Shown here piece by piece: positions 3,106 to 28,357 of a DNA stretch of 64,000 bases; the stretch's first letter is position 1; each line of letters starts with the position of its first letter. A program made the translations under genes and the position numbers. The stretch is from Bacillota bacterium. Its GTDB lineage: Bacteria > Bacillota_I > Bacilli_A > RFN20 > CAG-826. The stretch covers positions 22,282 to 86,281 of the forward strand of contig JAUNOH010000005.1 of assembly GCA_030537155.1 (NCBI GenBank), written 5' to 3'. The notes under the pieces were generated by a model, which worked only from the letters and a program-made list of their open reading frames with translations, had not been told where the DNA came from and did no database searches.

Positions 3106-3133
3106 GTTAAGGGATCGTTAAGAAATCGTTAAG
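3106..3133 (-). promoter_or_regulatory. three Pho-box-like direct repeats (CTTAAC on the minus strand, 11-bp period) upstream of pstS
   Basis: GTTAAG occurs at 3106, 3117 and 3128 on the plus strand. This equals TTAAC(G/C) hexamers with 5-bp spacers on the pstS strand, 75-100 bp upstream of the pstS ATG. It resembles the Bacillus PhoP TT(A/T/C)ACA-N5 repeat architecture. Confidence 0.55.
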
Positions 3134-3205
3134 GCTTGGTGGGCAATAACAAAAAAACGACGGTTTTCAGATTCGCCTCTTTGGATAATTTCCGATCGGG
3201 AAAAA

Positions 3206-3294
3206 TGTGTCTAAACACAAAAGATTCGAATGTTTTATTGATTATTCATGGCCTTCTATCGATAATATAGTCGAGAAATATGTGTCTAGACACA
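3206..3294. promoter_or_regulatory. pair of 14-bp palindromic operator-like sites upstream of the AAA ATPase gene
   Basis: TGTGTCTAAACACA at 3206-3219 and the perfect palindrome TGTGTCTAGACACA at 3281-3294, both preceded by GAAA(A)A. Their centres are 75 bp apart. Confidence 0.5.
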
Positions 3295-3308
3295 ATTTGG
3301 ATGGAAGA

Positions 3309-4631
3309 ATGAATCGAACAATCGAAAGACCCAAATATCTGAAAAAGCTCGTCTCCCTCATGGACAATGGCCGAGTCAAAATCGTAACAGGGGCGAGACG
3401 TTCGGGAAAAAGCTACCTCCTTAAGGAACTTTTCAAAAAAGAATTGCTCGCCATGGGGGTCCCGGCCGACCATTTCATCTACCTATCCTTTGAGGGAAAC
3501 GATAACAACGACCTCAAAAACCCGCTGGAGCTTGAAGCCCACATAAGGGGGCTGGTGAAAAACGATGGTAAGTACTATCTGATAATCGACGAGGCCCAAA
3601 ACATCTTTTCCATCACCAATCCATTATTTACCGGAGGAAAAATACTCCTTGCCAAAAAAGGAGATGAAAACGCCATAACCTACGTAGGCGTCGTCCTTTC
3701 GCTGGCGAAGATAGAAAACCTCGACGTCTACATAAGCGGGAGCAATTCCCGCTTCCTATCCCGGGACATCGTGACCGATTTCCGCGATCGGGGCGACGAA
3801 ATCAACGTTAAACCTCTCTCTTTTTCGGAATTCGTTTCATTTAAAAACGAAAATCCCGAAACCCTATATGAAGAATACTCGCTTTATGGGGGGATGCCAT
3901 TGACGCTCAGCTATGCGGAAAACAGGGAGAAAGAAAATTATCTGAATAACCTTTATCTGCTGACTTACGCCAAAGATCTCGTCGAGCGAAACAAAATCAA
4001 AGACGATGAGACGATCAACGTCCTGGCCAAGATTCTATCTAGTTCGCTCGGTTCTCTCGTCAACGGGGAAAAAATCTCCAACACCTTCGTTTCGAACAAA
4101 TTAAAAATTTCCGGCGAAACCGTAAATAAATACCTTGGCTTCCTAACCGAGGCCTATCTCATCGCGAAGGTTGATCGCTATGACATCAGAGGCCGAAAAA
4201 ATATCGGGGCCCTCTACAAATACTATTTCACCGACCTCGGAATCAGGAATTCGCTTCTCCACTTCCTTTCCCGCGATTTCGGCCACATCATGGAGAACAT
4301 CATATATAACGAGCTCGTCTACCGCGGTTATTCTGTTGAAATCGGGGTTATCAATGCCTTCAAAAAGGAAAACGGGACGACTAAGAGGGAAAACTATGAG
4401 ACGGATTTCCTCGTTAGGAAGGGGAGCCTCACATATTACATACAATCATGCTATTCGCTGAACGATGAGCAAACTTATGAAAGGGAAACCAGGCCATTCC
4501 GCCTCATTGATGATTCCTTCAAAAAAATCATCGTGACCCGGCTTGGTGGGCCCATAAGGCACGACGAGCACGGAATCACCCAAATGGGGATAGTCGATTT
4601 CCTATTGCGGGAAGATTCGCTGGATCTTTAA
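3309..4631 (+). CDS. AAA+ ATPase of the DUF4143-containing family
   Basis: ORF 3207..4631 opens with GTG. The ATG at 3309 gives the family-typical N-terminus MNRTIERPKYLKKLVSLMDNGRVKIVTGARRSGKSYLL (Walker A) and LIIDEAQ (Walker B). Confidence 0.75.
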   Translation: MNRTIERPKYLKKLVSLMDNGRVKIVTGARRSGKSYLLKELFKKELLAMGVPADHFIYLSFEGNDNNDLKNPLELEAHIRGLVKNDGKYYLIIDEAQNIFSITNPLFTGGKILLAKKGDENAITYVGVVLSLAKIENLDVYISGSNSRFLSRDIVTDFRDRGDEINVKPLSFSEFVSFKNENPETLYEEYSLYGGMPLTLSYAENREKENYLNNLYLLTYAKDLVERNKIKDDETINVLAKILSSSLGSLVNGEKISNTFVSNKLKISGETVNKYLGFLTEAYLIAKVDRYDIRGRKNIGALYKYYFTDLGIRNSLLHFLSRDFGHIMENIIYNELVYRGYSVEIGVINAFKKENGTTKRENYETDFLVRKGSLTYYIQSCYSLNDEQTYERETRPFRLIDDSFKKIIVTRLGGPIRHDEHGITQMGIVDFLLREDSLDL

Positions 4632-17103: not shown

Positions 17104-17534
17104 TATTCCCGAGTTGTTACACGAAAATCGATTGTGAAAGAAAAAACACTACCGTCAGTCGAGCTAGTCAATAAATTGTTATCGCTCGCCTCCGCTGCGT
17201 TAAAACCAATCTCATAAACGAGGTCTGCGCTATCGACAACCTCTCCGGCAACGTCGAGACCTTGATCACAAACTGAGAAGTCTGCATTAACACTGGCGGA
17301 AACAAAGCAATCCGCCACAACTGTACCGGTGACTAGTTTGCCCACGGTAGCGTCTATTTCGACAAATGCCGACGTGTTACCCACATTCCACGACGAGAAA
17401 CCAACCCCAATGCAGGAAACAATTGCCAAGACCAAAATGAAAGCTGGATGTGAAAGCCTATGCCTCTTTCCTTTGCCGAGCTTTATTTCGGACGAAGTGT
17501 TTGATATATCTTTATTCCGCTTTCTCAGTTTCAT
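17100..17534 (-). CDS. hypothetical membrane-anchored/secreted small protein
   Basis: Basic N-terminus and a TM segment AFILVLAIVSCIGVGFSSW. The motif C-x3-G-x-S-S-W is shared with the 1017-aa ORF (CVTIGEASW). Confidence 0.55.
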   Translation of the reverse strand: MKLRKRNKDISNTSSEIKLGKGKRHRLSHPAFILVLAIVSCIGVGFSSWNVGNTSAFVEIDATVGKLVTGTVVADCFVSASVNADFSVCDQGLDVAGEVVDSADLVYEIGFNAAEASDNNLLTSSTDGSVFSFTIDFRVTTREY

Positions 17535-17998: not shown

Positions 17999-19015
17999 AT
18001 GGTTAAAAGGAATAATCTCCTGGATATATTCAAACTGATTTTGGCCGTCGGGGTCATCTTCGTCCATTTTCCCTTCGAGGGGCCTATCGGTAACTTCTTC
18101 GCCTCCATCGGCACCACCGGGGTAATCGTCTTTTTCCTCATAAGCGGATATTCCTGCTATAAAGGCGAAAACACCGACAATTCGCCGACGATTCTAAGGA
18201 GAACGCGCCGGATTTTAAACCTGACTTTAGTGTCTGTGCTCATCTATCTGATATTCACGATCATCGAAAAGGCAACCTTAGGCACCATCGCCGAATGGGC
18301 AAGCACCTACTTCACCAATCCCCTCTTCTATTTGAGGCTCATCGTCTTGGGTGACTTTGAGTTCATCCATGGGGACCACCTCTGGTTCTTGCTGGCTTTG
18401 CTATATGGCTACCTGATCATGTATCTGGTCGAAAAGAAGAGGCTTAGAAAACCCTTGGCCATCGCCCTGCCCTTCCTGATATTGCTCCGGATTGGGATGG
18501 AGACCTACACCAATTCCTTCGGGGCTGACTGGCATTTATCCGGGAACGTTTTGGTCGGGGCCCTCCCGATGCTGGCTTTGGGCTACTTCATCCACGCGAA
18601 GGAAGAAAGCTTGCTTAAAATCGAAGGCCGTTACTGGATATCCGCCCTGATCCTCTCCTACATCCTCATGTACTACGCGGTCAATAACAAAGCCTTTGGC
18701 CTCGACATCTCCCAGATCTTCAAGGTGTCCACCGCCGCTTTGTCTTTCCTTTGTTGCCTCTCCTACCCCACCCTCATCAAAGACAACCTCATAGCCGCCT
18801 TTGGCCGCTGGGGCTCTTTATATATCTATGTCTTCCATTACCTGATCGGGGTGCTTTTAAAAGACATCTTCATGGCCAATGGGATCACGGGAGATTTCTA
18901 CTCCACCCACTTCCCCTGGATCGTCGTGGGGGTGAGCTTATTATTCGCCGCCTTATTGGCCTTAGCCGAGACGAGGCTATTGCCCAAGTTGAAACATAAA
19001 GCGAACAAGGCATAA
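17999..19015 (+). CDS. acyltransferase family 3 membrane protein
   Basis: ~10-TM protein starting MVKRNNLLDIFKLILAVGVIFVHF, typical of the Acyl_transf_3 N-terminus. The ATG is at 17999. Confidence 0.75.
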   Translation: MVKRNNLLDIFKLILAVGVIFVHFPFEGPIGNFFASIGTTGVIVFFLISGYSCYKGENTDNSPTILRRTRRILNLTLVSVLIYLIFTIIEKATLGTIAEWASTYFTNPLFYLRLIVLGDFEFIHGDHLWFLLALLYGYLIMYLVEKKRLRKPLAIALPFLILLRIGMETYTNSFGADWHLSGNVLVGALPMLALGYFIHAKEESLLKIEGRYWISALILSYILMYYAVNNKAFGLDISQIFKVSTAALSFLCCLSYPTLIKDNLIAAFGRWGSLYIYVFHYLIGVLLKDIFMANGITGDFYSTHFPWIVVGVSLLFAALLALAETRLLPKLKHKANKA

Positions 19016-19109: not shown

Positions 19110-19724
19110 ATGAATTTCCCCTACAAGCTAAAAGAATTAAGAAAGCAGAAGAACCTCACGCAGGAGGAACTTGCCAAGGAGATCTTCGTCTCGAGGACCC
19201 TGATCAGCAAATACGAGAACGGGGCCGCCTACCCCACCAGGGAGACGATCGAAAAGCTCGCCCTCTTCTTTGGCGTCAAGATATCCGATTTAGTCGATGA
19301 GGATGACACGGCCACCCTGGCGTTGAGGCAGTTGGATACCATCCATAAGCTAAACCTCGTCCTCCAGATCGTGATCATACTCATCACCCTGAGTGCGGCC
19401 ATCCTGAGCTTTCTTCCCATCGTGCAGGGCTCCTATTACGACTATGCGAATTATCAATATGCCCCGGGCACCTCGCCAGATAGGGTCCCCTTTACCATCA
19501 GCCCCCTGGCGATCACCTTAATCAGGAACGGAAACCCCATCGTCCTGATCGGGATGATCAGCTGCTTTGCTAATTCGGCTTTGGCCGGATTCTCGCTCCG
19601 GTTTAGGGACAACGTCTGGCTCCGCTTCATCTCCTATGCCCTATTCGTCGTCAACATCTTCCTCATCTTCTTCTCCATCGTCTTCTGCGCGGGCTACGCG
19701 AGCATGTACATGGGCGATATGTGA
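19110..19724 (+). CDS. XRE-family HTH regulator with a C-terminal multi-TM domain
   Basis: LKELRKQKNLTQEELAKEIFVSRTLISKYENG followed by 3-4 hydrophobic helices. An AGGAGG RBS is present. Confidence 0.8.
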   Translation: MNFPYKLKELRKQKNLTQEELAKEIFVSRTLISKYENGAAYPTRETIEKLALFFGVKISDLVDEDDTATLALRQLDTIHKLNLVLQIVIILITLSAAILSFLPIVQGSYYDYANYQYAPGTSPDRVPFTISPLAITLIRNGNPIVLIGMISCFANSALAGFSLRFRDNVWLRFISYALFVVNIFLIFFSIVFCAGYASMYMGDM

Positions 19725-19776
19725 TTGCTTCCGGAAACAAAAAAGGACCCAGCTCACGCCGGGTCTATTTTTTCAA

Positions 19777-19835
19777 TGGTGGACCAGCTGTCGTACCAGA
19801 CGAACCACCGTCTGTTTTTGAAAAAGCATCGAATA
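19777..19835. repeat. att-like repeat copy C
   Basis: TGGTGGACCAGCTGTCGTACCAGACGAAC...TTTTTGAAAAAGCATCGAATA, about 90 percent identical to 20853-20910 over the first 30 nt. Confidence 0.7.
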
Positions 19836-20024
19836 CATCACGAAATTTACTTATATGTCTATTCGATTGTTTTGGTGTACGGCTGTCTCATGTCCCCATC
19901 ACCAATTCACAGCCTCGAACGTTTCACGCCGTCTGAGAGGGTCTCTGCTTCCGAGGAATAGGCAAAATGTTTATGGCAATAAAAATAGGGCAGAATTTTC
20001 TTCCGCCCCATCCTCTTGAAGACA

Positions 20025-20297
20025 CTATCTATCGTAGATTTCCCTTCGATGGCCGATGGCGATGACGAGGATTATGAGCTTATCGTCTTTGATCTCACAC
20101 ACCATGCGGTAGTCTCCGATTCGGTAACGCCAATAGTCTTTGAGGTTGCCCTTGAGGGCTTTCCCACTAAGTCTAGGGTTCTCGACATTAGTCAAATGCT
20201 TATTGATCCACGACTGGATCATCCTTTTGGTGTAGCCGTCGAACTTAGTGAATTCCTTCGCAGCTTCCTTCGAAAACTCGATCTTATAAAAGGCCAT
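20025..20297 (-). CDS. relE: RelE/ParE-family type II toxin
   Basis: MAFYKIEFSKEAAKEF...YWRYRIGDYRMVCEIKDDKLIILVIAIGHRREIY. The ATG at 20297 overlaps the antitoxin stop by 14 nt. Confidence 0.85.
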   Translation of the reverse strand: MAFYKIEFSKEAAKEFTKFDGYTKRMIQSWINKHLTNVENPRLSGKALKGNLKDYWRYRIGDYRMVCEIKDDKLIILVIAIGHRREIYDR

Positions 20298-20508
20298 TGT
20301 TCTTCTGGACTTCTTCCCAGGAAATGGTCTTTTCCTTACCTTCATCGATAGCGACCATCCTCTCGTCGGCGATGGCTATATCGAATTCGTCTTCAATTGC
20401 CTCGAAATAGACTTTCTTGATGGCTTCGCTGAGGGTCATGCCCTTTAATTGCGCATAGCTTTTTGCAAGTTGCTCTTGCTCTTTGGTCATTCTGATTGAG
20501 ATGCTCAT
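20284..20508 (-). CDS. relB: RelB/DinJ-like ribbon-helix-helix antitoxin
   Basis: MSISIRMTKEQEQLAKSYAQLKGMTLSEAIKK; AGGAGG RBS; located upstream of the RelE gene. Confidence 0.8.
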   Translation of the reverse strand: MSISIRMTKEQEQLAKSYAQLKGMTLSEAIKKVYFEAIEDEFDIAIADERMVAIDEGKEKTISWEEVQKNNGLL

Positions 20509-20690
20509 TTAGACGGTCCTCCTATCTGTATCACATTGTATTACATCATTTCGCGTTTTCCAATGCCCTAGGCAAAAGTTAATTGATTCTTTCAGTTTAA
20601 ACTCTCCTCAGCAACTCATAAGACGTTCCCTTTTGTTTGCCTAGGATTTAGATTGCATATCAAAAACCGCCAAGGCCTCAATCCTTGGCG

Positions 20691-20852
20691 GTCTTTATTA
20701 GTTCGGGCCACGTACCATCAGAGATACTTTTCCAGAACAGCTCGATCTCCCCCTTTTTTTCGAAAATCTCTCGACAAGGGCCTTAGTATTAAAAGCGACC
20801 CACGACTACGTATCTATGAACGTAGAATTCCGGGGTCGCCTACTGATACAAA
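20691..20852 (-). pseudogene. degenerate second copy of the tRNA-proximal short ORF plus its terminator
   Basis: The minus strand reads ...FEKKGEIELFWKSISDGTWPELIKTAKD*, compared with ...FSKKGEIEKFWKSLSDGTWRELIKADKD* in the copy at 22853. In-frame stops lie upstream. The terminator hairpin ACCGCCAAGG/CCTTGGCGGT is at 20666-20692. Confidence 0.55.
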
Positions 20853-20910
20853 TGGTGGACCAGATGTCGTACTAGACGAACTCGATATTTATTTTGAAAA
20901 AGCATCGAAT
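20853..20910. repeat. att-like repeat copy B
   Basis: TGGTGGACCAGATGTCGTACTAGACGAAC...TTTTGAAAAAGCATCGAAT. Confidence 0.7.
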
Positions 20911-21133
20911 TCAACACATAATTTTGAATACCTAGTTGCTTATCTATTTGGAAAAGTCGCACCTTCATATGCCGACAATTGAACTCACCGGAAAGATTTA
21001 GCCTCACATATACGATGCTGATAAGCATGTCAAAATACATATATATGACTGCAACCGATAAATGACGTTTAAGGGGCAAGAAAATTGAGTATTTTGTAAG
21101 TTTATGCCCCTTAACTTGCATTTAACGTATAAT

Positions 21134-22468
21134 TCATTTGATCACCTTCCACCTACCCATCTTTTTGGACCCCACCCTTATGATGAGGCCTTTTTTCTGC
21201 AAACTGGCAAGCGCTCTTTCGACGGTTCTCAGACTTTTCCCGGTTTCCTGGGATAGCGAAATTGAGGTATGGCTCGGATTCGACAAAAGCAAACCGATAA
21301 TCTCGTTTTCTGTATCGCTGAGATTTAAGCCGCCGCTTAAACCATCGTTTAGACCAACGCTTAGACCGAAATTCTGCTTTTCCAGAACAGCCTTATTAAA
21401 CGGGATAATGACATTTATATAGGAATCTGTGATCTCGAAAGCGCCTTCCCCGTATTCCGAAACTATCACCGGGACGCCGTGACCTGTATGCTCAACTATC
21501 CCCATATCGAGGAAGATCCTCATTAGCTTTTCGTTTCTCGGCCTGCTTATACCTTTGAAAAATTGCTCTTTGGTTTGATTATGCGGGAGACCCCCATGCG
21601 AGAGAATTTCTATCCTATCCGAGAAAAAAGAAACCAGCGGTTCGGTTATGCTCCAATCATTATGCACCAGCGCATTAACAACAGCCTCATTGACGGCATC
21701 AAAATTGAAAAGATATATGTCTTTCCTAGGCCTTACGGTTGTGTCCGTGACACATATATTCTCAGCAGAAATCCTGTTCATCAGCTGTTCATAGGCAAAC
21801 AGCAGACATTGATTCCCGTAGTCGCTTCTCTGAGAAATCGAAACCTTGTCGGTTCCTTTGAATTTCACAAAGATCAAAGGAATCGTATTTCTATCAGACA
21901 TCAACTCGGCGAGTTTGTTGTATTCACCATCCGCGTTCCTTAAAAACAGATTCGTCTCAAAGGAATTGTCATTCAAATGAAAGCCTTTCTCAGAATAATA
22001 GATCTTCAATGTTTTAAAAGATATCAAACCGTAACTAGTGGGAGAACTCACCAAAATGTCGTTATTGAAGAAACGCTTTTCATAGCGAACCCTGATTTGC
22101 TCTTGGGTCATTTCGCGGCAGGTCGTACCAACTCTTATGGAGCAGCCTGTCGACGAAAAACCATATTTCTTTTGACAATAAATCGGACTGCTTCCTTTTT
22201 TAATAGCCACATTGACTATCGTTTTCCCTTCGTTATAGATAAGTTCCGTTTTTACGATATCCTGGGGATTCGGTTCGATTTGATTGGTTATCACATCGGC
22301 AAGATCTCTGCACACTTGATCAACATCATCGACCCCGACGATTTCCCCATCGTCTTTTACACCGATATAGATGTTTCCTCCTTCGGCGTTTAGAAATGAG
22401 ACTATCTCTTTGCAAATGGTGTTTGAATATTTCTGCTTGAGTTCCACTAGATTAGATTCGATTAACAT
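21134..22468 (-). CDS. AlbA_2 (Schlafen-type) domain ATP-binding protein with a C-terminal wHTH
   Basis: ESNLVELKQKYSNTICKEIVSFLNAEGGNIYIGVKDDGEIVGV (AlbA_2 signature), HTGHGVPVIV (HATPase_c_4-like), and the terminal RTVERALASLQKKGLIIRVG. Confidence 0.75.
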   Translation of the reverse strand: MLIESNLVELKQKYSNTICKEIVSFLNAEGGNIYIGVKDDGEIVGVDDVDQVCRDLADVITNQIEPNPQDIVKTELIYNEGKTIVNVAIKKGSSPIYCQKKYGFSSTGCSIRVGTTCREMTQEQIRVRYEKRFFNNDILVSSPTSYGLISFKTLKIYYSEKGFHLNDNSFETNLFLRNADGEYNKLAELMSDRNTIPLIFVKFKGTDKVSISQRSDYGNQCLLFAYEQLMNRISAENICVTDTTVRPRKDIYLFNFDAVNEAVVNALVHNDWSITEPLVSFFSDRIEILSHGGLPHNQTKEQFFKGISRPRNEKLMRIFLDMGIVEHTGHGVPVIVSEYGEGAFEITDSYINVIIPFNKAVLEKQNFGLSVGLNDGLSGGLNLSDTENEIIGLLLSNPSHTSISLSQETGKSLRTVERALASLQKKGLIIRVGSKKMGRWKVIK

Positions 22469-22504
22469 ATATTAATTCTCCTATCTACACGATAATTGTA
22501 CTTT

Positions 22505-22598
22505 AATCCGTCACAGAATGCAATTTATACCGTCATAAACCGTCATTAAAACCGCCAAATGTCGATTAGAGCGTTTTAAACCGCCATAAAACCGCTAT
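22505..22598. repeat. iteron-like array of six A(A/T)ACCG(T/C)CA motifs upstream of the AlbA_2 gene
   Basis: The CCG cores are at 22508, 22530, 22540, 22552, 22581 and 22592, with spacings of 22, 10, 12, 29 and 11 bp. All copies are in the same orientation. Confidence 0.6.
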
Positions 22599-22852
22599 TG
22601 GGCATAAGCCGGCCAGAATATTTCATGCCAAGGTTATAGATATGAATGCCTAGTATAGTTTCTTCAATGGTTTAACGATCATGGACTCTATATATTCAAA
22701 GTCTTTTGAAGGCAATCACGGCCAAAAAACAGTTTTAGGAGCAAAAAAATAAATGAAATCGGTTTAGCCGTGTCCGATGCTTGGCCGATTATATTTGATC
22801 GAAATGAAACGTAACAATAGGGGTGGAAAAGAAAAAGGCTGACAGGGACCTT

Positions 22853-23026
22853 TCAGTCCTTGTCAGCCTTTATTAGTTCTCGCCACGTCCCATCACTGAG
22901 ACTTTTCCAGAACTTTTCGATCTCACCTTTTTTCGAGAATCTTTCGATGAGAGCAGTATTATCGAAGGCTATCCCTACTGTGTATCTATCTACATAGACA
23001 AACTGGGGTTCGCCTGGATGAACAAT
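22853..23026 (-). other. short ORF or gene 3' fragment directly downstream of tRNA-Phe, with terminator
   Basis: The track ORF 22853..23059 begins inside the tRNA. The conserved part is ...RYTVGIAFDNTALIERFSKKGEIEKFWKSLSDGTWRELIKADKD*. A 14-bp-stem hairpin plus T-run lies at 22826-22870. Confidence 0.35.
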
Positions 23027-23102
23027 TGGTGGTCCAAGGGGGAGTTGAACCCCCGACACGTGGATTTTCAGTCCACTGCTCTACCAGCTGAGCTACCGGA
23101 CC
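23027..23102 (-). tRNA. tRNA-Phe (GAA), CCA encoded
   Basis: The reverse complement GGTCCGGTAGCTCAGCTGGTAGAGCAGTGGACTGAAAATCCACGTGTCGGGGGTTCAACTCCCCCTTGGACCACCA folds as a cloverleaf with anticodon loop CTGAAAA. Confidence 0.95.
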
Positions 23103-23109
23103 ACACGCT

Positions 23110-23186
23110 TGGCGGATCGTACGGGATTCGAACCCGTGATCTTCTCCGTGACAGGGAGACATGTTGGACCACTACACCAACGATCC
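23110..23186 (-). tRNA. tRNA-Asp (GTC), CCA encoded
   Basis: The reverse complement is GGATCGTTGGTGTAGTGGTCCAACATGTCTCCCTGTCACGGAGAAGATCACGGGTTCGAATCCCGTACGATCCGCCA. The anticodon stem-loop is TCTCC-CTGTCAC-GGAGA. Confidence 0.95.
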
Positions 23187-23331
23187 ATGGCTTAAGCGCC
23201 CTAATATTATCCATAGGAGACCTAGCAATTGCAAGAAGCAGAAAATAGCCTTTTTTCCTTATGGAAAGCCATGATTTAGCCGATTACACGGCTCGACCCA
23301 AAACGGGGCATGATGTTATCATCATAGCAAC

Positions 23332-27146: not shown

Positions 27147-27343
27147 CAAATTTCAAATTAACGAAAAATTATCGAATTAGTGGATTTTGACGCTGTTTCA
27201 TGTCGTTTTTTCGCCATTTTGTTCCCTTTCATTACCGGTAAAAATGTATTGGTTTTTCAAAGGTTACAGAAAATGGCATTGCGTTGGTTTTCAGACTTTA
27301 TCAAGGCAAAGGCCAATATTATATAAAGAGGATATGCGGCCAA

Positions 27344-27384
27344 AAGAAAAGCCCCACCTCCCGAAATCCGGGATTTGGGGCATT
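27344..27384 (-). terminator. terminator after the SPFH gene
   Basis: GCCCCA..CCCG / CCGGGA..TGGGGC hairpin followed by TTTTCTTTT on the minus strand. Confidence 0.55.
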
Positions 27385-27394
27385 CTTATATTCC

Positions 27395-28357
27395 TTATTC
27401 CTCAGCCGTTTCTTCCGGGACGGGGTCCTTGAGGCTTTCGGCTAAGCCGGCCACGAAGCTACCGGCCTTCTCGAAGCCATAGGGGAGCAATATCTTGGTG
27501 GACTTGCCATCCCCCACTTTCGCCAGGGTCTCGAAGTAACGTAGCCTCAATACCGACTCATCGGCCCCGGCCTCCTTTAAGGATACCAAACCCTCGGCCT
27601 CGGCGTCCCTGACCATCTTGATGCCCTCGGCCTCGGCCTGTTTGGTCTTCAATAGGCTTTCGGCTTCACCTTCGGCCTGGAGGATTTTGGCCTGCTTCTC
27701 ACTCTCGGCGTTGAGGATCATGGATTCCTTCTTACCCTCGGCGATGAGGATGGTCGATTGCTTCTCACCCTCGGCCAAAAGGATCTTCTCCCTCTTTTCA
27801 CGCTCAGCCCGCATCTGGCGTTCCATGGCGTTGCGGATGTCCTGGGGCGGGAGGATGTTTTTCACCTCGACCCTATTGACCTTGATGCCCCAGGGGTCGG
27901 TGGCCTTATCGAGGATCTCCCTCATCTTCTGGTTGATGATGTCGCGCGAGGTGAGGGTGCTGTCCAAATCCAAATCACCGATGATGTTCCTCAGGGTGGT
28001 GGCCGAGAGGTATTCGATGGCCTGGATCGGGTTATTTACGCCATAGGCGTATAGATATGGGTCGGTCACCTGGAAGAAGGTGACGGTGTCGATCTTCATG
28101 GTGACGTTATCCTTGGTGATGACGCTTTGGGGCTCGAAGTCCATCACGTGCTCCTTCATCGAGATCTTGTTGGTGACCCGATCGATGAAGGGGATGAGGA
28201 AATGGATGCCAACTCCCCAGGTGGCGTGGTATTTGCCGAGCCTTTCAACGACATATTTGTCGGTTTGCTTGACGACCCTGACGTTCAGGGCGCAGATGAG
28301 GATGATGAGTACGATGATTACTCCGAATACTAAGATTGCGATTTGCCAGCCTTCCAT
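27395..28357 (-). CDS. SPFH/band-7 (stomatin-like) protein
   Basis: N-terminal TM, an SPFH core and a charged coiled-coil tail. It is paired with the upstream NfeD gene. Confidence 0.85.
   Translation of the reverse strand: MEGWQIAILVFGVIIVLIILICALNVRVVKQTDKYVVERLGKYHATWGVGIHFLIPFIDRVTNKISMKEHVMDFEPQSVITKDNVTMKIDTVTFFQVTDPYLYAYGVNNPIQAIEYLSATTLRNIIGDLDLDSTLTSRDIINQKMREILDKATDPWGIKVNRVEVKNILPPQDIRNAMERQMRAEREKREKILLAEGEKQSTILIAEGKKESMILNAESEKQAKILQAEGEAESLLKTKQAEAEGIKMVRDAEAEGLVSLKEAGADESVLRLRYFETLAKVGDGKSTKILLPYGFEKAGSFVAGLAESLKDPVPEETAEE

What the first reader, a model, noticed from the sequence alone, without database searches (positions are those of the whole stretch)
19777..23102. tRNA-Phe 3' end is a serial integration hotspot with two decayed islets and no integrase
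Seen in sequence:
- The complement of the tRNA-Phe 3' terminus (TGGTGGTCCA at 23027) recurs as TGGTGGACCA at 20853 and at 19777.
- The ~190 bp that follow the tRNA (22853-23036: short ORF ...FSKKGEIEKFWKSLSDGTWRELIKADKD* plus terminator) are duplicated in degenerate form at 20691-20862, with stops in frame and its own terminator hairpin.
- Copies B and C share the opposite-side flank (…TTTTGAAAAAGCATCGAAT…).
- Islet 1 (20853-23027) carries the AlbA_2 gene and islet 2 (19777-20853) carries RelBE.
- Both are AT-richer than the core genes.

Inference: two successive insertions of related elements into the same att site were followed by loss of the recombinase. The result is an attL-cargo-att-cargo-attR arrangement.
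Basis: partly seen in the sequence, partly recalled or inferred. Interest (0 to 1): 0.6.

Follow-up and report, generated by a model that had tools for sequence, protein, structure and literature searches.

The report
Two integrase-less islets behind tRNA-Phe
Two small pieces of foreign DNA, one carrying a toxin-antitoxin pair and one an AlbA_2-type gene, sit one behind the other between the end of the tRNA-Phe gene and its original terminator; this is an ordinary, already known way in which bacterial genomes pick up accessory genes.

Summary
The 10-bp tRNA-Phe terminus recurs twice. Copies A and B share about 190 bp on one side (75% identity, E 5e-26). Copies B and C share 62 bp on the other side (83%, E 1e-14). 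The two repeats overlap only in a 12-bp core.

On the tRNA strand the layout is: tRNA-Phe, core, P'1, AlbA_2 gene, P1, core, P'2, DUF6290/ParE toxin-antitoxin pair, P2, core, terminator.

- **Composition:** the 3.25-kb insert is 41.9% GC against 52.7% for the genome, the lowest 0.2% of windows.
- **Original flank:** in at least 16 of 20 genus relatives the tRNA-Phe CCA end is followed at once by a terminator. Here that arrangement exists only after the distal core.
- **Recombinase:** the genome has only XerC- and XerD-like tyrosine recombinases and no serine recombinase.
- **Arms:** they occur nowhere else in any collection searched.
- **Strains:** all conspecific contigs long enough to show it carry the same arrangement.

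Best reading (about 0.65): two related site-specific elements integrated in tandem at the extreme 3' end of tRNA-Phe and are now integrase-less, CIME-like remnants. No empty site, parent element or cognate integrase was found. This is a new member of a known kind, of low to moderate interest.

The parts
23110..23186 (-). tRNA-Asp(GTC), first gene of the two-tRNA unit
   Evidence: ARAGORN; Rfam RF00005, 67.4 bits
23027..23102 (-). tRNA-Phe(GAA), intact; its 3' end (…TTGGACCACCA) is the target site
   Evidence: ARAGORN; Rfam 67.4 bits; homology to 29 genus loci ends exactly at 23027
23027..23036 (-). Core copy A (TGGTGGTCCA on +; the true tRNA terminus TGGACCACCA). Junction of tRNA and P'1, attL-like
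22834..23026 (-). P'1 arm. It holds an open 58-60-codon ORF remnant with no start codon of its own (its only start is a GTG inside the tRNA), a dyad at 22977-22998, and an intrinsic terminator at 22834-22871 that now ends the tRNA transcript
   Evidence: The ORF has no homologue anywhere
22469..22833 (-). Islet 1 regulatory region: promoter-like site (22817-22788) and an AAACCG(T/C)CA iteron-like array, which varies between strains by a 23-bp (two-unit) indel at 22548
21134..22468 (-). Islet 1 cargo: 444-aa AlbA_2 (Schlafen-type) + HATPase_c_4 + winged-HTH protein
   Evidence: Pfam; PHROG 12156; widespread family at about 60% identity, whose closest homologues (73% and 69%) lie in unrelated contexts
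20863..20924 (-). P1 arm (distal end of islet 1), homologous to P2
   Evidence: 83%, E 1e-14; D2, D4
20853..20862 (-). Core copy B (TGGTGGACCA). Junction of P1 and P'2
20662..20852 (-). P'2 arm: degenerate copy of P'1 (two TAA stops and frameshifts; the last 34 codons are still in frame) with its own terminator at 20662-20696, kept by three compensatory pairs
20284..20508 (-). Islet 2 cargo: DUF6290 antitoxin (74 aa)
   Evidence: Pfam PF19807, E 2.9e-21; phrog_4085
20025..20345 (-). Islet 2 cargo: ParE/RelE-superfamily toxin (90 aa from the start at 20297, as called in metagenome contigs; 106 aa from 20345)
   Evidence: Pfam PF05016, E 4.4e-18; phrog_1213 RelE-like; gene calls
19787..19848 (-). 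P2 arm (distal end of islet 2)
   Evidence: (D2, D4)
19777..19786 (-). Core copy C (TGGTGGACCA). Junction of P2 and the original chromosomal flank, attR-like
19739..19776 (.). Presumed original tRNA-Phe downstream flank: TTGAAAAAATA plus a bidirectional terminator hairpin (19746-19765). It also ends the convergent XRE gene 19110-19724
   Evidence: The same 'CCACCA TTGAAAA + hairpin + T-run' follows tRNA-Phe in G063 and G064, and a terminator follows directly after CCA in at least 16 of 20 relatives

Best explanation
Two related but distinct site-specific integrative elements inserted one after the other at the extreme 3' end of tRNA-Phe. The crossover lay within CCACCA, tRNA positions 71-76. 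This pushed the tRNA's original terminator 3.25 kb away.

Each element brought three things:
- a tRNA-proximal arm (P': the 3' end of a small gene plus a terminator that now ends the tRNA transcript);
- one cargo module;
- a 62-bp distal arm (P).

The result on the tRNA strand is tRNA-O-P'1-[AlbA_2]-P1-O-P'2-[DUF6290/ParE TA]-P2-O-terminator. Neither islet, nor the assembled genome, encodes a matching recombinase. The islets are therefore fixed, CIME-like remnants: att sites kept, integration genes gone.

The islet next to the tRNA (AlbA_2) is probably the younger. An incoming element would use the functional tRNA end. Its arm is intact, while P'2 is decayed.

Shown: the repeats, their register, the cargo, the composition, the lack of recombinases, absence from relatives and fixation in the species. 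Inferred: integrase-mediated insertion, the order of events and the loss of the recombinase.
For: - **Register of the repeats:** the A/B and B/C repeats are significant and overlap only in the 12-bp core. This is the B-O-P'…P-O-P'…P-O-B' register expected from Campbell-type tandem integration.
- **Junction alignment:** the three junctions share CCACCA exactly. The base 5' of it follows the left-hand partner (A in the tRNA, T in both P arms). This fits a 6-8-bp tyrosine-recombinase overlap region.
- **Composition:** 41.9% GC against 52.7%, the 0.2 percentile.
- **Original flank:** homology with 29 genus loci stops at 23027. At least 16 of 20 relatives have a terminator straight after CCA. Core C is followed by TTGAAAA plus a terminator, as in G063 and G064.
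- **Arms absent elsewhere:** not in 60 relatives, in 400 genomes of the order, or in the rest of this genome.
- **Cargo:** typical island cargo, and unrelated between the two islets. The closest AlbA_2 homologues lie in other contexts, with similarity confined to the gene.
- **Arms under constraint:** the terminator is kept by three compensatory pairs, and a dyad about 40 bp from the core is kept with one compensatory change.
- **Recombinases:** only XerC/XerD-like tyrosine recombinases and no serine recombinase.
- **Known process:** decay of an element to a CIME followed by tandem accretion is reviewed in PMC5704250. Tandem elements separated by partial tRNAs are described in bioRxiv 10.1101/2020.12.28.424599. 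The asymmetric 3' end is a recognised crossover sublocation in tRNA genes (10.1101/2020.11.02.365908).
Against: - No empty site with the same flanks exists in any relative. The nearest XRE homologue is 56% identical and lies in other contexts.
- All conspecific contigs long enough to show it carry the full arrangement at 99.4-100% identity. There is no insertion/deletion polymorphism.
- No intact parent element, attP junction or integrase with these arms turned up in GTDB genomes, JGI metagenomes, IMG/VR, phage or plasmid collections, or among 1.84 billion protein representatives.
- The shared core is very short (6 bp perfect, 9 of 10 overall). A single recurrence of a tRNA's last 10-mer occurs by chance downstream of about 10% of this genome's tRNAs.
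- None of 20 genus relatives has an integrase near tRNA-Phe.
Confidence: 0.65

Rival explanations
1. The islets never carried a recombinase. They are minimal cargo cassettes (att-arm-cargo-arm-att) that an integrase supplied in trans inserts and removes. The helper would be a phage or ICE absent from this assembly. The arms are kept by selection as recombinase-binding sites. On this reading the islets are functional satellites or cassettes, not decayed remnants.
For: Both islets have the same compact layout with one cargo module each. The arms differ by 17-25% yet keep a terminator and a dyad through compensatory changes. In a second species, G064, a DUF6290/ParE cassette right after tRNA-Phe is flanked by a 32-bp, 97%-identical direct repeat and has no integrase. 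In conspecific strains another AlbA_2 gene is a strain-variable single-gene insertion flanked by a 64-bp direct repeat.
Against: The arms occur nowhere else, which is odd for an active cassette system. There is no polymorphism among conspecific contigs. P'2 is visibly decayed. The terminator may be kept for host reasons alone. The G064 and strain-variable cassettes use different repeats and share no sequence with these arms.
Confidence: 0.13
2. Only one element ever integrated. The core-arm-cargo-arm unit was then duplicated in tandem by unequal crossing-over between the flanking cores, and the two copies diverged and swapped or lost cargo in place.
For: This gives the same O-P'…P-O-P'…P-O register. 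It needs no second visit by a rare element whose relatives cannot be found anywhere.
Against: The two cargo regions share no detectable similarity, so both copies would need complete cargo replacement while keeping the arms. A 6-10-bp core is a poor substrate for unequal homologous exchange. The arms differ by 17-25% while strains differ by less than 0.6%, so long in-situ divergence would be needed.
Confidence: 0.12
3. There was no site-specific integration. The repeats mark another mechanism (a transposon with a target-site duplication, Xer/dif-type modules, or illegitimate recombination at terminators), or the whole region is ancestral and the core match is chance.
For: The core is short, and single chance recurrences are common. 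Xer recombinases are the only recombinases present. G064 shows that terminator-flanked cassettes exist in the genus.
Against: There are no terminal inverted repeats at the islet ends and no transposase. The homology blocks begin and end exactly at the tRNA terminus. GC content is a strong outlier. The arms are absent from all relatives. No dif-like 28-bp site was recognised by eye at the junctions, but this was not formally tested.
Confidence: 0.05

Closest known systems
CIMEs and tandem accretion of ICE/IME-type elements (ICESt1/CIME family of Streptococcus thermophilus; reviewed in PMC5704250, which cites Pavlovic et al. 2004 and Bellanger et al. 2011)
   Same: The elements have lost their integration and transfer genes but keep attL and attR. 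They sit in tandem at the 3' end of a target gene, with a third att copy between them. The arms are related and the cargo differs.
   Different: Each unit is very small (1.1 and 2.2 kb) and has a single cargo module. The identity segment is only 6-10 bp. No related ICE, IME or integrase is known, so derivation by decay and cis-mobilisation are untested.
Tycheposon arrays in Prochlorococcus genomic islands (bioRxiv 10.1101/2020.12.28.424599)
   Same: Successive integrations at one tRNA gene push older elements further from the tRNA. The elements are separated by partial tRNA copies, degenerate remnants remain, and the host has a small, streamlined genome.
   Different: Tycheposons are defined by their recombinase and replication modules, and none is present here. 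The separators here are only the last 6-10 nt of the tRNA, not recognisable partial tRNAs (Rfam finds none). The host is a gut Bacillota.
Genomic islands at the asymmetric 3'-end sublocation of tRNA genes, e.g. phe-tRNA islands of Enterobacteria (sublocation concept as summarised in 10.1101/2020.11.02.365908; the phe-island examples are from my own knowledge)
   Same: Target gene type, downstream insertion, restoration of an intact tRNA, and supply of a new terminator by the element.
   Different: Those islands carry P4-like or other tyrosine integrases next to the tRNA and usually repeat 17-50 nt or more of the tRNA. Here there is no integrase and only CCACCA (+TGG) is repeated.
SSV-type integration, in which attP lies inside a gene so that integration splits it (own knowledge, archaeal fuselloviruses)
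   Same: One reading frame runs through the core in copy B (…FDAFSK*…SGPP|FVSVGDPG…), and copy A continues it (GPP|IVHPGEPQ…). A gene therefore probably spanned attP and was split by integration.
   Different: In SSV the split gene is the integrase. Here the split ORF is a short orphan with no recombinase motif, family or fold match.

Membership tests
tRNA-targeting integrative element / genomic island (Campbell-type) | Direct repeats that include the 3' end of the tRNA gene at both boundaries | tested here: met
   Three copies of TGGTGG(T/A)CCA lie at the exact ends of the arm homologies. The repeat is short: 6 bp perfect, 9 of 10 overall.
tRNA-targeting integrative element / genomic island (Campbell-type) | Encodes its own integrase (tyrosine or serine recombinase) | tested here: not met
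   No such ORF in 19777-23027. Genome-wide six-frame searches find only two Xer-type PF00589 hits on other contigs and no PF00239 hit.
tRNA-targeting integrative element / genomic island (Campbell-type) | Absent from related genomes, with an unoccupied site | tested here: inconclusive
   The arms are absent from 460 relatives, and a terminator follows CCA directly in at least 16 of 20 relatives. No relative shares the distal flank, so no true empty site is available. All conspecific contigs are occupied.
tRNA-targeting integrative element / genomic island (Campbell-type) | Atypical base composition | tested here: met
   41.9% GC against 52.7%, the 0.2 percentile of genome windows.
CIME (cis-mobilizable element) | Has lost integration and transfer genes but retains attL and attR | tested here: met
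   Cores and homologous arms are present. There is no recombinase gene, and the only ORFs in the islets are the cargo genes.
CIME (cis-mobilizable element) | Derived from, and mobilisable in cis by, a related ICE/IME whose integrase recognises the same att | not testable with these tools
   No related element or integrase was found in any collection.
Tycheposon | Recombinase plus replication module; recognisable partial tRNA between tandem copies | tested here: not met
   No recombinase or replication genes. Rfam finds no partial tRNA at B or C. The P arm does not match any tRNA above shuffled controls.
Transposon / insertion sequence | Terminal inverted repeats and a transposase, with the direct repeat as a target-site duplication | tested here: not met
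   The inverted-repeat scan finds none joining the islet ends. No transposase-like ORF.
Xer-dependent element (IMEX / dif module) | Flanking 28-bp dif-like XerC/XerD binding sites | not tested
   Xer proteins are the only recombinases present. The dif site of this organism was not identified, and the cores are tRNA-end sequence.
Type II toxin-antitoxin, ParE/RelE superfamily with DUF6290 antitoxin | Adjacent, overlapping small genes, antitoxin first, matching both families above the curated cut-offs | tested here: met
   PF19807 at 75.9 bits (cut-off 27) and PF05016 at 66.1 bits (cut-off 23). The genes overlap and lie on the same strand. Activity was not tested.

The most novel reading that the evidence does not exclude
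The two islets are working members of an undescribed class of integrase-less, single-cargo cassettes. The cassettes dock behind tRNA-Phe, each bringing a replacement terminator, and are shuffled by a helper-encoded recombinase acting on a minimal CCACCA core. On this view the region behind the tRNA serves as a cassette acceptor for defence and addiction genes in small-genome gut Bacillota. The repeat-flanked toxin-antitoxin cassette in G064 and the strain-variable AlbA_2 cassette would be further examples.
Probability: 0.1. Interest if true: 0.55.

Novelty: new member of a known kind. Interest (0 to 1): 0.25.

Why it matters
The locus is a clean, small example of how a streamlined gut bacterium with no mobile-element integrase of its own still gains accessory genes at a tRNA gene. 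Here the gains are a toxin-antitoxin pair and a Schlafen/AlbA_2-type regulator or defence candidate.

For annotation, it marks 19777-23026 as foreign DNA. It explains why the tRNA-Asp/tRNA-Phe transcript now ends at an element-supplied terminator. It also flags the 58-60-codon ORF next to the tRNA as a split-gene remnant, not a gene.

It adds no new principle unless the cassettes prove to be mobile in trans.

Tried and rejected
1. **Identity of the ORF beside the tRNA (ORF A).** It has no Pfam or PHROG family, even when joined to its putative N-terminal part. Among 1.84 billion representatives there is one hit, and it is spurious: a repeat protein at E 1.8e-5. The single-sequence AlphaFold model (pLDDT 70, beta-beta-beta-alpha-alpha) has no PDB fold match at E <= 0.3. 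Coding constraint between copies A and B is ambiguous: 17 identical, 7 synonymous and 11 replacement codons, with differences by codon position 9/9/13.

2. **The P arm as a decayed tRNA.** Rfam finds nothing at B or C. The best local score against all 40 tRNAs of the genome (11) is within the shuffled range of 9.9 +/- 1.4. A resemblance to the 5' part of tRNA-Phe remains unexplained and is listed under things noticed.

3. **Parent element.** Pattern and protein scans of genome contigs, metagenome contigs and viral contigs, and BLASTN against phages and plasmids, all came back empty.

4. **Empty site through flanking genes.** XRE homologues (56% identity or less) and the closest AlbA_2 homologues lie in unrelated contexts. 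PI-PLC-anchored conspecific contigs show the same arrangement or break at the tRNAs.

5. **Integrases near tRNA-Phe in 20 genus relatives.** None.

6. **A structured RNA in P'.** The fold z-score of -4.5 comes mostly from the terminator, and two sequences are too few for a covariation test.

7. **A 40-nt tRNA-Arg 3'-end repeat on contig C3.** It is a second complete tRNA-Arg gene, not an att remnant.

Full report
**What is there**

The window is C28:22282-86281 of a 1.33-Mb, 37-contig, 90.7%-complete assembly with 52.7% GC. Earlier notes of this scan call it a gut Bacillota. tRNA-Asp (23110-23186) and tRNA-Phe(GAA) (23027-23102) lie on the minus strand (Rfam). Between the tRNA-Phe 3' end and the convergent XRE-family membrane-protein gene (19110-19724) lie 3.25 kb holding only three real genes, all co-directional with the tRNAs:
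- a 444-aa AlbA_2 + HATPase_c_4 + winged-HTH protein (21134-22468);
- a DUF6290 antitoxin (20284-20508);
- a ParE/RelE-superfamily toxin (20025-20345).

**Checking the observation**

A self-BLAST of 19600-23300 gives two strong direct repeats and nothing else above noise.
- 20678-20862 matches 22853-23036: 188 columns, 75%, E 5e-26.
- 19775-19848 matches 20851-20924: 75 columns, 83%, E 1e-14.
- Neither repeat has another copy in the window or the genome.
- The two repeats overlap only in 20851-20862. The first ends 10 nt inside tRNA-Phe.

Read on the tRNA strand, the three junctions are:
- A: …CCCCCTTGGA-CCACCA-ATTGTTCATCC… (tRNA into P'1)
- B: …CGACATCTGGT-CCACCA-TTTGTATCAG… (P1 into P'2)
- C: …CGACAGCTGGT-CCACCA-TTGAAAAAATAGACCCGGCGTGAGCTGGGTCCTTTTTT (P2 into flank)

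The perfectly shared segment is therefore CCACCA (tRNA positions 71-76), preceded by TGG. The one 'mismatch' of the 10-mer goes with the left-hand partner: A in the tRNA, where it pairs with T3, and T in both P arms.

The 10-mer alone would not be convincing. Five of this genome's 40 tRNAs have one downstream recurrence of their last 10 nt within 5 kb by the same test, one of them a second tRNA-Arg gene. Only tRNA-Phe has two, and both sit exactly where the arm homologies start and stop.

The AT-richness is real and strong. Islet 1 is 40.5% GC, islet 2 is 44.5% and both together 41.9%, the lowest 0.2% of equal-sized windows in the genome.

**Anatomy of the arms**

P' (about 190 bp, next to the tRNA side of each islet) has three parts.
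- An ORF remnant that reads away from the core.
- A dyad about 40 bp from the core (22977-22998 and 20805-20826).
- A strong intrinsic terminator (22834-22871 and 20662-20696).

The two terminators differ in sequence but keep their stems through three compensatory pairs. The dyad keeps one.

Copy A of the ORF is open for 58-60 codons after the core, but its only start codon is a GTG inside the tRNA. Copy B has two TAA stops and frameshifts. Its last 34 codons still align in frame, with 23 identical residues. In copy B one frame runs from P1 through the core into P'2 (…EFDAFSK*ISSSSSTTSGPP|FVSVGDPG…). The same frame in copy C gives …FDAFSKTDGGSSGTTAGPP|LKK*. The simplest reading is that a small gene once spanned the element's attP and was split by integration.

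That ORF is an orphan.
- No Pfam or PHROG family.
- No hit in 60 relatives or in 400 genomes of the order.
- No real hit among 1.84 billion representatives.
- No fold match.

**Evidence that this is an insertion**

- Nucleotide homology between the window and 29 tRNA-Asp/Phe loci of the same genus ends exactly at 23027.
- In at least 16 of 20 relatives examined, the CCA end is followed within about 5-15 nt by a hairpin and T-run. In G063 and G064 the intervening bases are TTGAAAA. Here the true tRNA end is followed by 175 nt of P' before any terminator. 'CCACCA TTGAAAA + hairpin + T-run' is found only after the distal core C (19739-19782).
- That hairpin is also the terminator of the convergent XRE gene. 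The original tRNA terminator has therefore been displaced by 3.25 kb.
- Synteny in this genus is too poor to provide an empty site. Apart from a Fic gene in G064, no flanking protein is shared within 10 kb. The nearest XRE homologue is 56% identical and lies elsewhere.

**No recombinase**

Six-frame HMM searches of the whole assembly find two PF00589 proteins.
- A 294-aa XerD-like gene next to a dinB-like (Y-family DNA polymerase) gene.
- A 309-aa XerC-like gene next to trmFO-like and rpsB-like genes; the neighbours in both cases were recognised by eye from their translations.

There is no PF00239 serine recombinase. Nothing in the islets resembles a transposase, and the islet ends are not inverted repeats.

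**Population and relatives**

The conspecific metagenome contigs anchored on the XRE or PI-PLC protein carry the same two-islet arrangement wherever they are long enough. The ten XRE-anchored ones are 99.4-100% identical to the window. The cores and arms are invariant. The only structural variant inside the islets is a 23-bp indel in the iteron-like array upstream of the AlbA_2 gene. So the islets are fixed in the sampled species.

None of 20 genus relatives has an integrase near tRNA-Phe. One of them, G064, has a DUF6290/ParE pair (31% and 37% identical to the window's) directly after tRNA-Phe. It lies in the same orientation and is bracketed by a 32-bp, 97%-identical direct repeat made of the tRNA terminator. 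G005 has a distant AlbA_2-type gene after its tRNA-Asp/Phe/Met cluster. This gives modest support for the region behind this tRNA cluster being a preferred landing place in the genus.

**Search for a parent element**

All of the following were empty.
- Protein-pattern scans with the conserved ORF end against GTDB genomes, JGI metagenomes and IMG/VR.
- DNA-pattern scans with the P arm against the same three collections.
- BLASTN of P' against phage and plasmid collections.

The closest AlbA_2 homologues (73% and 69%) sit in unrelated neighbourhoods, with similarity confined to the gene. The arms and the cargo therefore have separate histories.

**Interpretation**

The register B-O-P'1…P1-O-P'2…P2-O-B', the 6-bp exact overlap and the foreign composition all point one way. 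So do the displaced terminator and the unrelated cargo between related arms.

They fit Campbell-type integration of two related elements at the asymmetric 3'-end sublocation of a tRNA gene. That sublocation is recognised in the literature (10.1101/2020.11.02.365908). After integration the elements were reduced to att-flanked, integrase-less units. These correspond to CIMEs and tandem accretion as reviewed in PMC5704250. They also resemble the tandem, partial-tRNA-separated arrays described for tycheposons.

The tRNA-proximal islet is probably the later arrival. Its arm is intact and its GC content is furthest from the host's, but this is weak evidence.

I put this reading at about 0.65. The rivals are:
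- cassettes that never had an integrase and depend on a helper (0.13);
- a single integration followed by tandem duplication and cargo turnover (0.12);
- other mechanisms or chance (0.05).

What is missing is an empty site, an excision product, or a cognate integrase.

**Verdict**

This is a new member of a known kind and of modest interest. The one route to higher interest is evidence that such single-cargo, integrase-less cassettes are actively exchanged behind tRNA genes in these small gut genomes.

Noticed in passing
window 19777-19805 and 20853-20881, compared with 23075-23105: The core-proximal P arm, read on the tRNA strand (CGTCTGGTACGACAGCTGGT|CCACCA), looks like tRNA-Phe positions 1-20 fused directly to positions 71-76 (21 of 26 matches for copy C). 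The repeat finder lists the tRNA 5' part as a third, 65% copy. Against tRNA-Phe alone, 0 of 500 (copy C) and 4 of 500 (copy B) shuffles score as well. Against all 40 tRNAs the score is within chance. Unexplained; it could be mimicry of a recombinase-binding site, or coincidence.
   Followed up: partly
window 22548 (array 22505-22598): Seven of the nine conspecific contigs that reach this position carry 23 extra bases (AACCGCCATTTAAACCGCCATTT, two more units) in the iteron-like array upstream of the AlbA_2 gene. An eighth has a single-base deletion at 22551. The copy number of the putative operator varies between strains.
   Followed up: partly
L051 (G064) 3113-3895: In another species of the genus, tRNA-Phe is followed by its terminator and then a DUF6290 antitoxin (3318-3542) and a ParE/RelE toxin (3539-3808). 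A second, 31-of-32-identical copy of the terminator segment follows (about 3195-3226 and 3863-3894, containing CAGCTCCGATAATTCGGGGCTGTTTTTC). This is a repeat-bracketed toxin-antitoxin cassette with no integrase.
   Followed up: partly
window about 27300-27412; L076 12969-14682: Conspecific strains (for example ERZ27271110) carry a 480-aa second AlbA_2/HATPase_c_4 gene between the LacI-type and Band_7 genes, where the window strain has only 112 bp. The insert is flanked by a 64-bp, 94%-identical direct repeat made of TTGAAGTA-type iterons. The flanks there are only 91-92% identical to the window, against more than 99.4% elsewhere.
   Followed up: partly
L047 (G005) 135-2014: G005 has tRNA-Asp, tRNA-Phe and tRNA-Met followed about 240 bp later by a co-directional 464-aa AlbA_2-type gene. 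It is 27% identical to the window's over a 199-residue C-terminal stretch.
   Followed up: no
window 18293 and 17123: Strain differences in neighbouring genes. G>T at 18293 in three contigs coincides with the acyltransferase being called as two genes (98 + 222 aa), where the window has one. Eight of the ten contigs have one extra A at 17123, in the small ORF upstream of the Hint-domain protein.
   Followed up: no
window 20662-20675: The 5' stem of the P'2 terminator reads AAAAACCGCCAAGG. It thus contains one copy of the AAACCGCCA unit of the iteron-like array found upstream of the AlbA_2 gene, in the same orientation and about 460 bp downstream of that gene's stop (pair I10). Possibly chance.
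   Followed up: no
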